DNA of 64,000 nucleotides, from assembly GCF_041248615.1 (NCBI RefSeq), contig NZ_CP158426.1; one strand, written 5' to 3'. This document shows, one piece after another, positions 40,037-42,041 of this stretch. Made by a program: the position numbers and the translations under genes. Origin of the DNA: Escherichia coli. GTDB taxonomy: Bacteria > Pseudomonadota > Gammaproteobacteria > Enterobacterales > Enterobacteriaceae. How positions within the stretch are numbered: the stretch's first letter is position 1; each line of letters starts with the position of its first letter. Under the pieces are notes generated by a model, which was given only the letters and a program-made list of their open reading frames with translations, was not told the DNA's origin and made no database searches.

Positions 40037-40354
40037 ATGAGCAAAACTCGTCGGACTAAACGCACCTTTTCCCCGGAGTTCAGGCTCGAAGCTATCGAGC
40101 AAGTAGTTAAATACCAGCGCGATGTCAGAGAAGTCGCGCTGGCACTTGAGCTCAATCCTGACCATTTGCGTAAATGGATACGGTTGTATAAGCTGGAACT
40201 TCAGGGTATTGAGCCCGCTGGTAATGCCATACCCCTGAACAGCGAGAAATTCAGCAGCTTAAAAGCGCAGATAAAGCGCCTTGAGATGGAAAAAGAAATA
40301 CTAAAGCAGGCTGCCGTGCTGATGAGCGAAATCCCCGGCAAGCTGTCGCGCTAA
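40037..40354 (+). CDS. IS3-family transposase OrfA (HTH + leucine zipper)
   Basis: 105-aa ORF with IS3-family OrfA architecture. Confidence 0.7.
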   Translation: MSKTRRTKRTFSPEFRLEAIEQVVKYQRDVREVALALELNPDHLRKWIRLYKLELQGIEPAGNAIPLNSEKFSSLKAQIKRLEMEKEILKQAAVLMSEIPGKLSR

Positions 40355-40455
40355 TCACACTGCTGAAAGCAAAGCGGCCAGTGCGGATTATTTGTCATTT
40401 ATTCGGTGTTCACCGTAGCGTTTATTACGCGCAGGTGAAGCGTCCTGTTAATGTA
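40355..40455 (+). pseudogene. IS3-family OrfB, 5' fragment, truncated
   Basis: OrfB-like N-terminus reads for about 30 codons then stops at the 32-bp repeat boundary. Confidence 0.35.
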
Positions 40456-40479
40456 TCAGCGCCAATGATATAAGACAGT

Positions 40480-41229
40480 AATTAGGATTCGGACGATTTC
40501 CTGGACTGCTTTATTATGCCAGCCCGCATTGTTGGCGGTACATTTCAGGGATGACTGCACCCAGCGAAAATTTTATACGCCGCTCGTTATACCATCTGAT
40601 GTAAGCATCCACATGCCGCATGAATTTTTCAGGCGTGATACCCAATCATTTACGCCCATAATATATTTCAGTTTTCAGTCTGCCGAAAAAGCCTTCGCAT
40701 GCAGCATTATCAGGCGAGCATCCTTTACGGGACATTGAGCGAATAAGGCCTGCTGTATTCACTCTTTCCAGCCAGGCCAGCGATAATGCCCACCTCTGTC
40801 ACTGTGTATCACCGGTCGTTCGCCAGCATTTAACGTTTCGACAGCGTTATCCAGCATAGTGTTGACCAGTTCAGCATCGGGGCGTGTACTGAGAGACCAG
40901 CTCACAACTTTTCTGTCGAAGCAGTCCACCACCGGTGATAGCCAGACTTTTCCTGCAGGAAGCTGGAACTCCGTGATATCTGTCAGCCATTTCTGATTAG
41001 GTTGCTCCGCCTTAAAATCTCTGGCGATAAGGTTATCCGGAGAAGGTCCGATTTCTCCGCAATATGAGCTGTAGCGGCGATGACGGTTACGGCTGACGAC
41101 AAGCTGTTCCTCCACCATAAGTCTGCGTACAACCTTTTCTGATAGCCGATCCCCCTCATGCCTGAGCATCGCATGCAGGCGACGATAGCCATAACACTGG
41201 TAATTACTGTTAAATATATCTGTCAGCAT
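40480..41229 (-). pseudogene. IS3-family transposase OrfB (integrase core), frameshifted
   Basis: ORF 40759-41229 carries the DDE region; the C-terminus ...CEGFFGRLKTEIYYGRKW... continues in another frame at about 40480-40760. Confidence 0.6.
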
Positions 41230-41337
41230 CGTACGTATCGTGGCGTATTTATCACTGGCTTTCAGTGCAGCCCGGTGATAAAAATAACTGCTACGGGCAA
41301 GGCCCAGAACATGCAGTAATTCTGTCAGGGGATATGT

Positions 41338-42041
41338 TTATCTCAGGGCATCAGTAATCTTTGTTTTTTCTCTGTTGTTCAGGTGACTGATGCTGATGCC
41401 CGGGTCTTTTTTTATTATTTCCTCCGCTTTTTTCAGAATATCCAGTTCCATCTGCCGGCGGCGTATTTCCTGATTCAGTCGGGCGACTTCCTCCCGCAAC
41501 GCATCGCGTTCTGCCTCCAGGGAAGGGGCGTTATGTTTACGCATAGTCTGGTAAGCACTGTTGCCGATAATTTCATCTTTCCATTTATACAATACCGCGC
41601 GACTGACACCAATACGCCTGGCGATTTCACTGGCTGATCCTTGTCGTGTACAGAGTACCATGACAGCCTGACGTTTGACTTCTGGTTCAAAGGACGCAAC
41701 CGGATTGGTCTTACTGGTAAATACACGTCGTCTGTCGGGGGAACGTTCATTAACCCAGCGAGCGAGCATATCGGTACAGGGATAACCCAGAGTCCTGCTG
41801 GTAAACGCCAGGCAGCAGCCGTGGTTAAGATAATGTTCAACGGCAACCTGTTTTTGCTCATCGGAGTAACGGTGCTTATGACGAATGGATTCTTTTGATC
41901 CGCCACCTGCTTCCCATGAACGGATCCAACGCCGCAGATTTCTTTTCGAAGGGTAGCCCAGTTCGCGTACGACGGGGCCAGCTTCTTACCATATTTGAAA
42001 TAAAGCTCAATGGTGCGAATTTTTTGTTCTTCAGTAAACAT
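41338..42041 (-). pseudogene. IS3-family OrfA, frameshifted
   Basis: Two overlapping ORFs (41475-42041 and 41338-41769) in different frames together read as one OrfA with HTH and leucine zipper. Confidence 0.5.

What the first reader, a model, noticed from the sequence alone, without database searches (positions are those of the whole stretch)
40037..42041. Head-to-head IS3-family fragments with multiple frameshifts
A plus-strand OrfA with a truncated OrfB start faces a minus-strand IS3-family element whose orfA and orfB are each split across frames. This records successive IS insertions and decay next to the integrase.
Basis: seen in the sequence. Interest (0 to 1): 0.2.

Follow-up and report, generated by a model that had tools for sequence, protein, structure and literature searches.

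The report
Decayed nested insertion-sequence relics beside pheV integrase
This stretch is a pile of dead insertion sequences next to the integrase of an E. coli pheV genomic island; it is ordinary mobile-element debris already flagged as pseudogenes in RefSeq, except that one relic sits inside the stubs of a third, unannotated IS21-type element.

Summary
Window 39967-40453 is the 5' 0.49 kb of a ~1.25 kb IS3-family element ("IS-A", ISKpn37-like). Its orfA is open and about 50 codons of orfB remain; the DDE domain is gone. Window 40482-42082 (minus strand) is a full-length but dead IS3-family element ("IS-B"). Intact relatives of IS-B encode one 510-aa transposase, not orfA and orfB. This copy has a 1-bp deletion, a 4-bp deletion, two nonsense codons and mutated terminal dinucleotides. 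None of these lies at a slippery site, so programmed frameshifting does not rescue it.

The two elements are convergent (tail-to-tail), not head-to-head.

In other E. coli replicons this 1660-bp "mini-IS21::IS-B" chimera has inserted as a unit with 4-5 bp duplications, and IS-B lies about 27 bp inside IS21-family tips in 8 of 9 independent sites sampled.

In the window the chimera has no target duplication. It joins the IS-A stump to the last ~29 codons of a phosphoethanolamine-transferase gene, so a deletion or rearrangement followed insertion. The same 2.4-kb structure (99.9-100% identical in the 25 listed) occurs in 34 complete genomes. RefSeq already annotates both IS3 pieces as pseudogenes. 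Interest is low.

The parts
39967..40453 (+). IS-A: the 5' ~487 bp of a ~1.25-kb IS3-family element (ISKpn37-like). Its left tip is TGTAGTGGATCGG. It is truncated inside orfB. The right limit is ambiguous within 40451-40454.
   Evidence: Alignment to four relatives (L003, L005, L006, L007) starts at the shared TG tip and ends at ...CCTGTTAATGT. BLAST limits agree. PGAP labels the nearest named relative ISKpn37, at 80-89.5% nt identity over part of orfB.
40037..40354 (+). IS-A orfA, 105 aa and open. It carries a compensated -1/+1 indel pair (deletion between 40229/40230; extra A in 40261-40264) that turns ITPEQREIQQLK into IPLNSEKFSSLK.
   Evidence: HTH_Tnp_1 E=2.5e-14. Alignment. Pfam score is lower than a relative's orfA, 53.7 against 61.9 bits.
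40297..40453 (+). IS-A orfB 5' remnant in the -1 frame (...LITLLKAKRPVRIICHLFGVHRSVYYAQVKRPVNV). The rve/DDE domain is entirely missing. A candidate slip site, GAAAAAG, lies at 40289-40295 (inference).
   Evidence: Frame arithmetic. Relative L006 has a complete 273-aa orfB with rve at E=3.3e-25. The window fragment has no Pfam hit.
40454..40481 (-). Stub of an IS21-family left-end terminal repeat, (TG)TATCAGCGCCAATGATATAAGACAGTAA. The outer tip is ambiguous within 40452-40455. By length-matched alignment the terminal dinucleotide reads TA instead of TG.
   Evidence: Matches the IS21 left tip TGTCAGCGCCAGTGATATAAGACGGTAATT seen in the tandem IS21 of L015. The same arm flanks IS-B in L004, L020 and L014.
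40482..42082 (-). IS-B: a full-length (~1601 bp) but defective IS3-family element. The 23-nt terminal inverted repeats at 40485-40507 and 42057-42079 are retained, but both terminal dinucleotides are mutated.
   Evidence: About 95% identical to all sampled relatives, with 56 private substitutions. Domain hits. Inverted repeat. Tips compared.
41976..41977 (-). Lesion 1: a 1-bp deletion after codon 22 (GCTGGC-CCCGTCG). It shifts the N-terminal HTH region out of frame.
   Evidence: Alignment to intact L004, L010 and L013.
41338..41340 (-). Lesion 2: in-frame nonsense codon, CAA to TAA (...TDALR*TYPL...).
   Evidence: ORFs 41338-41769 and 40759-41229 are in the same frame.
40775..40782 (-). Lesion 3: a 4-bp deletion (CAGG) within a CTGGC..CTGGC direct repeat, inside the DDE domain. 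Its position is ambiguous within the repeat.
40646..40648 (-). Lesion 4: in-frame nonsense codon, TGG to TGA (...YYGRK*LGITPEKF...).
41406..41413 (-). A7G run (AAAAAAAG). It is in frame in this copy and in the intact single-ORF relatives. It is the only slippery motif in IS-B and coincides with none of the four lesions.
   Evidence: A-run variants among copies: A7GAC, A10C, A9C.
42083..42108 (-). Stub of an IS21-family right-end terminal repeat (plus strand AACGGTCAAAAATCGTGGCGTTGATA). The outer tip is ambiguous within 42108-42110. The terminal dinucleotide reads TA instead of CA.
   Evidence: Matches the IS21 right end ...TAACGGTCAAACATCGTGGCGTTGACA (L015). Length bookkeeping against the 1660-bp chimeras of L004 and L020.
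42109..42195 (+). The 3' ~29 codons of a phosphoethanolamine-transferase gene, cut by the chimera.
   Evidence: PGAP pseudogene. Alignment to the longer remnant in L008 begins at CAGGG. At pheU islands the same gene is cut elsewhere, by IS100 in L008 and by IS1 in L009.
42292..43554 (-). P4-type tyrosine integrase of the island (context).
   Evidence: NF007246 E=1.1e-72, 244.9 bits, below that model's curated cut-off of 434. PGAP annotation.
43752..43827 (-). tRNA-Phe (pheV, next to yqgA-speC), the attachment site of the island (context).
   Evidence: ARAGORN. Annotation.

Best explanation
The region is non-functional debris from at least three insertion sequences at the integrase-proximal end of an E. 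coli pheV genomic island.

Inferred history:
1. An ISKpn37-like IS3-family element (IS-A) sat in the island, pointing towards the integrase.
2. A 1.66-kb chimera landed nearby. It consists of an IS3-family element (IS-B) lodged between the terminal ~27-30 bp of the two ends of an IS21-family element.
3. A deletion or recombination that ended at the chimera's outer tips removed the 3' ~0.77 kb of IS-A, whatever lay between, and all but the last ~29 codons of a phosphoethanolamine-transferase gene. This left the chimera without a target duplication.
4. IS-B then decayed. It acquired a 1-bp deletion, a 4-bp deletion, two nonsense codons, substitutions in its own TG/CA tips and in the IS21-type outer tips, and about 3.5% private substitutions. 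IS-A orfA acquired a compensated frameshift pair.

Shown: the element identities, limits, lesions, lack of duplication and missing sequence.
Inferred: the order of events, and that none of the pieces can move or make an active transposase.
For: - Domain hits and PGAP pseudogene calls.
- IS-A limits and its missing orfB.
- IS-B lesions mapped against intact 510-aa relatives.
- The arms are IS21-family termini.
- The chimera inserted as a unit elsewhere. Removing it plus a 4-bp duplication (CCTT) restores a 473-aa ORF across umuC in L020. Removing it plus a 5-bp duplication (ATAGC) restores a 315-aa ORF in L004. Other duplication lengths give much shorter ORFs.
- The window flanks are unrelated to each other: the IS-A orfB sequence ...TTAATG on one side and the transferase sequence CAGGGG... 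on the other.
- A longer remnant of the transferase gene lies next to the same integrase type elsewhere.
- 34 complete genomes share the 2.4-kb structure, 99.9-100% identical in the 25 listed.
- A less rearranged left side (intact ISEc38 and marR) survives in strain CREC-544.
Against: - The order of events cannot be fixed. The chimera could equally have first entered the transferase gene, with the deletion running the other way, or two chimera copies could have recombined.
- The outer tips are ambiguous by 2-3 bp. Either TG/CA mutated to TA/TA, or there is a symmetrical 2-bp insertion.
- Nothing tests expression. The intact-looking 105-aa orfA could in principle still be made.
Confidence: 0.88

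Rival explanations
1. The elements are intact, and every frame change is a programmed ribosomal frameshift.
For: IS3-family elements commonly use -1 frameshifting. An A7G run exists in IS-B. PGAP labels some IS-B relatives 'programmed frameshift'. The orfA to orfB overlap of IS-A is the normal -1 arrangement.
Against: Intact IS-B relatives are a single 510-aa ORF. The two frame changes in the window are a 1-bp and a 4-bp deletion in non-slippery contexts (GCTGGC|CCCG and CTGGC|CTGGC), far from the A7G run. There are also two nonsense codons. IS-A has lost its whole DDE domain.
Confidence: 0.01
2. The frame breaks are sequencing or assembly errors in an otherwise intact IS.
For: Homopolymer and indel errors are common in long-read assemblies. 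The window also holds a perfect 140-bp tandem duplication in the neighbouring IS2, which could be an assembly artefact.
Against: 34 complete genomes, from different laboratories, hosts and countries, share the 2401-bp structure, and the 25 listed are 99.9-100% identical to it. Two of the lesions are base substitutions that create stops. The copy also carries 56 private substitutions.
Confidence: 0.01
3. The ~27-30 bp arms belong to IS-B itself, so IS-B would be one IS3-family element with ~52-bp terminal repeats and no IS21 relic would be present.
For: The arms travel with IS-B in several replicons, and target duplications lie at the outer tips. Both the arms and the IS-B repeats begin with TG.
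Against: The arms match the true termini of IS21 and ISEc62. IS-B occurs in both orientations relative to the arms. IS-B occurs inside full-length IS21-family elements with istA or istB beyond it (L013, L010). It also occurs without arms at the locus shared by EC958, Nissle and KN13-4. Empty 51-53 bp arm pairs exist.
Confidence: 0.05
4. The surviving IS-A orfA (105 aa, open, identical on at least 1000 contigs) has been retained as a functional small DNA-binding regulator.
For: The ORF is open with a good HTH_Tnp_1 match. The exact sequence is widespread.
Against: Eleven codons at the start of the coiled-coil segment are out of frame relative to all four relatives, and the Pfam score drops. The wide occurrence is explained by inheritance of one island variant. 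There is no evidence of expression.
Confidence: 0.05

Closest known systems
ISKpn37-like IS3-family elements (nearest named relative of IS-A by PGAP label). Architecture as in IS911 and IS3 (from general knowledge, not tested against their sequences).
   Same: HTH_Tnp_1 orfA; orfB overlapping in the -1 frame; rve/DDE orfB in relatives; TG...CA tips (TGTAGTGG...CCACTACA); about 1.25 kb.
   Different: Only 80-89.5% nt identity to ISKpn37-labelled copies, and only over part of orfB. None of the four close relatives fetched is annotated as intact. There is no canonical A6G heptamer at the orfA/orfB overlap. The window copy keeps only the 5' 39%.
ISKpn38-like IS3-family elements (nearest named relative of IS-B by PGAP label).
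   Same: NF033516 IS3-family transposase (429 bits for an intact relative); two N-terminal HTH regions, HTH_21, rve and rve_2; 26-bp inverted repeats ending TG...CA.
   Different: Only about 69% nt identity, over the DDE half. Intact copies encode one fused 510-aa ORF rather than orfA/orfB with an obligatory -1 frameshift. The element has a strong association with IS21-family termini.
IS21 and ISEc62 (IS21 family): the source of the arms.
   Same: The arms match the outermost ~27-30 bp of the IS21 left and right ends, apart from the mutated tip dinucleotide and a few substitutions. Chimeras in other replicons have 4-5 bp target duplications, the sizes I recall for the IS21 family.
   Different: There is no istA or istB and no inner repeat motifs. 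Only the tips survive, enclosing a foreign IS. In the window the tips are mutated and no duplication is present.
Target-specific IS3-family elements: IS1397 and ISKpn1 inserting into REP/BIME palindromes, and IS911 insertion next to sequences resembling its own ends (general knowledge, not tested here).
   Same: IS-B lies at one position (~27 bp from the tip) of a short conserved imperfect palindrome, in either orientation, in several independent contexts.
   Different: The target is the end of another IS family rather than a host repeat. Specificity is inferred from nine natural sites, not from an assay.

Membership tests
IS3 family (IS-B, minus strand) | DDE (rve) transposase with N-terminal HTH and leucine-zipper region | tested here: met
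   Window pieces: HTH_Tnp_1 7.5e-13, HTH_21 1.9e-12, rve 6.1e-18, rve_2 7.7e-7. Intact relative: NF033516 at 429 bits against a cut-off of 160.
IS3 family (IS-B, minus strand) | Terminal inverted repeats ending 5'-TG...CA-3' | tested here: inconclusive
   Relatives have TGGGGATGCGGACGATTTCCTGGAC...GTCCAGGAAATCGTCCGCATCCCCA. The window copy keeps the 23-nt inner repeat. Its tips read (A)GGGG... on one side and ...CCTAA on the other, so both terminal dinucleotides are altered.
IS3 family (IS-B, minus strand) | Two overlapping ORFs (orfA, orfB) joined by a programmed -1 frameshift | tested here: not met
   Intact relatives L010 and L013 have one continuous 510-aa ORF with the A7G/A10 run in frame. 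This is a variant architecture within the family. Membership still rests on the NF033516 match.
IS3 family (IS-B, minus strand) | Short (3-4 bp) target duplication at its own ends | tested here: inconclusive
   The flanks inside the arms read TTT/TTA, TTC/TTT and TTA/TTT in L004, L011 and L014. This is compatible with a 3-bp TTN duplication but is not exact. L013 shows none.
IS3 family (IS-A, plus strand) | orfA (HTH_Tnp_1) followed by a -1 overlapping orfB with an rve domain; TG...CA tips | tested here: met
   Window orfA 2.5e-14. The orfB start is in the -1 frame. The left tip TG is at 39967. Relatives carry rve (3.3e-25) and a right tip ...CCACTACA. The window copy itself lacks orfB beyond about 50 codons.
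IS21 family (the arms) | Terminal sequences matching IS21-family ends | tested here: met
   Side-by-side comparison with the ends of tandem IS21 in L015 and of ISEc62 in L010. BLAST of the joined arms hits IS21 ends in 3958 of 5426 genomes.
IS21 family (the arms) | istA transposase and istB helper genes between the ends | tested here: not met
   Only IS-B lies between the arms. It is therefore a stub or mini derivative, not an IS21 element.
IS21 family (the arms) | 4-5 bp target duplication at the outer tips | tested here: not met
   In the window, the flanks TTAA(TG) and (CA)GGGG are unrelated. The feature is met in the sister chimeras L020 (4 bp, restores umuC) and L004 (5 bp).
tRNA-associated genomic island with P4-type integrase (context) | Tyrosine integrase adjacent to a tRNA gene | tested here: met
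   Integrase 42292-43554: NF007246 E=1.1e-72, 244.9 bits, below that model's curated cut-off of 434, and PGAP 'tyrosine-type recombinase/integrase'. tRNA-Phe lies at 43752-43827, with yqgA-speC beyond it.

The most novel reading that the evidence does not exclude
IS-B may be a specialist IS3-family element that inserts about 27 bp inside the terminal repeats of IS21-family elements, in either orientation and at either end. The resulting 1660-bp 'mini-IS21::IS-B' chimeras (IS21 tips, no istAB) would then be mobilised as units by IS21-family transposase supplied in trans. That would make one IS a hitch-hiker on another family's ends. The window would hold a dead copy of such a chimera. I found no description of this in the searchable literature, but ISfinder could not be consulted.
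Probability: 0.45. Interest if true: 0.35.

Novelty: already known. Interest (0 to 1): 0.15.

Why it matters
It matters little for the finding as given. IS pile-ups at the integrase-proximal ends of tRNA-linked islands are routine, and RefSeq already marks both IS3 pieces as pseudogenes.

The practical value is a cleaner annotation:
- exact element limits;
- four defined inactivating lesions;
- a missed IS21-family relic;
- evidence for a deletion that removed most of a phosphoethanolamine-transferase gene.

The side observation could interest people who study IS target choice and non-autonomous elements. An IS3-family element is repeatedly found at one position inside IS21-family ends and travels within a mini-IS21 shell. 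It also explains why automated annotation leaves ~30-bp unannotated gaps on both sides of this IS.

Tried and rejected
- Naming the elements. ISfinder is not available. The listing of cluster members returned only 'IS3 family transposase' and one submitter's label 'IS602 transposase', which I could not verify against any reference. NCBIfam gave only the generic NF033516. The nearest PGAP-named relatives are ISKpn38 (69% nt) and ISKpn37 (80-89.5% nt over part).
- Literature searches on IS21 with IS3 target specificity, ISEc62, and IS21 MITEs found nothing on this association.
- I first read the arms as long inverted repeats of IS-B. I rejected this once they turned up in the opposite orientation and as true IS21 ends.
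- I first assumed an orfA/orfB architecture with an A6G frameshift for IS-B. I rejected this after translating intact relatives.
- The 12-nt direct repeat TCCTGTTAATGT (40000-40011 and 40443-40454) lies at the IS-A break. I treated it as probable chance, since it is a two-copy family.
- The duplication test for L014 was inconclusive.
- No intact IS-A relative turned up among the four fetched.
- Structure prediction, RNA-family and metagenome tools were not used, because nothing in the region called for them.

Full report
**Context.** The window matches E. coli chromosomes. It is 100% identical to NZ_LT599825.1 (isolate NRZ14408) over 39900-42300, and 33 further complete genomes carry the same 2.4-kb stretch (the 25 listed are 99.9-100% identical). 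The finding lies at the integrase-proximal end of a pheV island:
- tRNA-Phe at 43752-43827, with yqgA and speC beyond it;
- a P4-type integrase at 42292-43554.

RefSeq annotation of the identical genome already lists four relevant features:
- window 40037-40455: "transposase; frameshifted; incomplete; missing C-terminus";
- 40514-42041: "IS3 family transposase; frameshifted; internal stop";
- 42106-42195: a phosphoethanolamine-transferase fragment;
- 38110-39338: an intact IS2.

**The plus-strand piece (IS-A).** I aligned the window with four relatives from unrelated loci (L003, L005, L006, L007). The shared sequence starts at a TG tip, TGTAGTGGATCGG, at 39967. It stops at ...CCTGTTAATGT at 40451-40454. 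The relatives continue for a further ~0.77 kb to ...CCACTACA.
- orfA (40037-40354, 105 aa) matches HTH_Tnp_1 at 2.5e-14.
- The -1 frame then gives about 50 codons of orfB.
- The rve domain, present in relative L006 at 3.3e-25, is entirely missing.
- orfA is open but not pristine. Relative to all four relatives it has a 1-bp deletion (40229/40230) and a 1-bp insertion (A-run 40261-40264). These scramble about 11 codons and lower the Pfam score from 61.9 to 53.7 bits.
- The nearest relative that PGAP names is ISKpn37.

**The minus-strand piece (IS-B).** Relatives are about 95% identical and common: near-full-length copies occur in 827 of 5426 genomes.
- Translating eight copies shows that intact ones (L010, L013) encode a single 510-aa ORF. 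An A7G or A10 run lies in frame.
- PGAP's "programmed frameshift" labels on other copies (L004, L011) do not mark a shared orfA/orfB junction. In L004 the frame change is a one-base shorter A-run at this site. In L011 the A-run is in frame and the break lies further downstream in the DDE half.
- Against these relatives the window copy has four lesions:
  1. a 1-bp deletion between 41977 and 41976;
  2. a CAA to TAA nonsense codon at 41338-41340;
  3. a 4-bp deletion at about 40776 within a CTGGC repeat;
  4. a TGG to TGA nonsense codon at 40646-40648.
- The apparent orfA/orfB boundary is lesion 2. The two ORFs on either side of it share one frame.
- The copy also has 56 private substitutions in 1602 bp. 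Both terminal dinucleotides are altered, although the 23-nt inner inverted repeat survives.
- The two IS3 pieces read towards each other, so they are tail-to-tail rather than head-to-head.

**The missed third element.** About 30 bp on each side of IS-B match neither IS-A nor the transferase gene. The two stretches are inverted repeats of each other, and they recur around IS-B in other replicons.
- A search with the joined arms hit the ends of IS21-family elements.
- The tandem IS21 of L015 shows the arms are the outermost ~27-30 bp of the IS21 right and left ends.
- Across nine independent IS-B sites:
  - two lie inside full-length IS21-family elements, about 27 bp from the left tip (L013) or the right tip (L010, ISEc62);
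  - six lie between a right-tip stub and a left-tip stub, in one orientation (window, L004, L014, L020) or the other (L011/L012/L022/L030, L023);
  - one lineage locus (EC958, Nissle, KN13-4) has no arms.
- Arm-to-IS-B junctions of the two kinds occur in 445 and 399 records.
- Empty 51-53 bp pairs of stubs also exist (L016, L025, L026).
- Two 1660-bp chimeras with identical arms sit at different sites, and each has a target duplication at the outer tips. Deleting the chimera plus 4 bp (CCTT) restores a 473-aa ORF across umuC in L020. Deleting it plus 5 bp (ATAGC) restores a 315-aa ORF in an IS256-family gene in L004. Other duplication lengths do not.
- The chimera has therefore moved as a unit through IS21-type ends. 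I infer, without testing it, that resident IstA/IstB supplied the activity.

**The junctions in the window.** Length bookkeeping against L004 and L020 (1660 bp, minus the five deleted bases) puts the outer tips at 40454 and 42108. There the terminal dinucleotides read TA/TA instead of TG/CA. A 2-bp symmetrical insertion with tips at 40452 and 42110 cannot be excluded.
- The left flank is IS-A orfB.
- The right flank is the last ~29 codons of a phosphoethanolamine-transferase gene. Homology to the longer remnant in L008 begins at CAGGG, position 42109.
- There is no target duplication, and sequence is missing on both sides. At least one deletion, or a recombination between two copies, therefore followed insertion. 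The order of events is not determinable from these data.
- The transferase gene next to this integrase type has been cut independently by IS100 and by IS1 at pheU islands.

**Verdict.** Corrections concern orientation, architecture and element limits, plus the missed IS21-family relic. As a finding it is ordinary and already annotated. The only item of wider interest is the recurrent IS-B/IS21-end association and the mobile chimera. I could not find it described, and I could not check ISfinder.

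Noticed in passing
window 39290-39569: A perfect 140-bp tandem duplication covers the left end of the neighbouring IS2 (its terminal repeat and the orfA start). 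The spacing between the IS2 CDS and IS-A orfA shows it is present in NRZ14408 but absent in strain GF43. It is either a recent duplication or an assembly artefact.
   Followed up: partly
window 36672-39383, compared with L018 3086-5338: In the window an ISEc38 (ISL3-family) transposase gene is truncated at its 5' end by the IS2. Strain CREC-544 keeps ISEc38 intact, followed by a MarR-family gene, and has no IS2. The IS2 arrival therefore removed about 1 kb, including marR, from this lineage.
   Followed up: partly
L016 2501-2553; L025 1501-1551; L026 1501-1547: Solo 51-53 bp 'empty shells' occur on a plasmid and in chromosomes, including O157:H7. Each is an IS21 right-tip stub fused to a left-tip stub with nothing between. 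In L025 and L026 the same flanking sequence abuts opposite ends of the shell, which suggests an inversion with one breakpoint at the shell.
   Followed up: partly
IS-B copies L004, L010, L011, L013 and window 41406-41413: The poly-A run in the middle of the IS-B transposase gene varies between copies (A7GAC, A7GCC, A7GAT, A10C, A9C). The ORF is fused in L010 and L013, while PGAP invokes a programmed frameshift in L004 and L011. A -1 slip on the run would give a truncated protein of about 225 aa containing only the HTH regions.
   Followed up: partly
L012 and L022, left flank of IS-B: In two plasmids the IS21-type arm beside IS-B is itself cut by the right end (...CCACTACA) of an IS-A-type element. 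The two IS3-family elements of this finding therefore meet elsewhere too, in a different arrangement.
   Followed up: no
L008 and L009 (pheU islands), compared with window 42109-42195: A closely related integrase (95.7-95.9% nt over the shared stretch) with the same phosphoethanolamine-transferase remnant sits at pheU in other strains. There the gene is cut at different points, by IS100 and by IS1. No intact copy of this transferase gene was seen in the loci fetched.
   Followed up: partly
L028 (NZ_LT599825.1 2448966-2454037): The genome that matches the window holds a second, separate IS21-arm/IS-B junction, in the opposite configuration. It lies in another IS graveyard with IS630, IS110 and IS3 pseudogenes.
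   Followed up: no
window 40000-40011 and 40443-40454: An exact 12-nt direct repeat, TCCTGTTAATGT, has one copy in the IS-A leader and the other exactly at the point where IS-A is broken. It is probably chance, but it could have served as microhomology.
   Followed up: no
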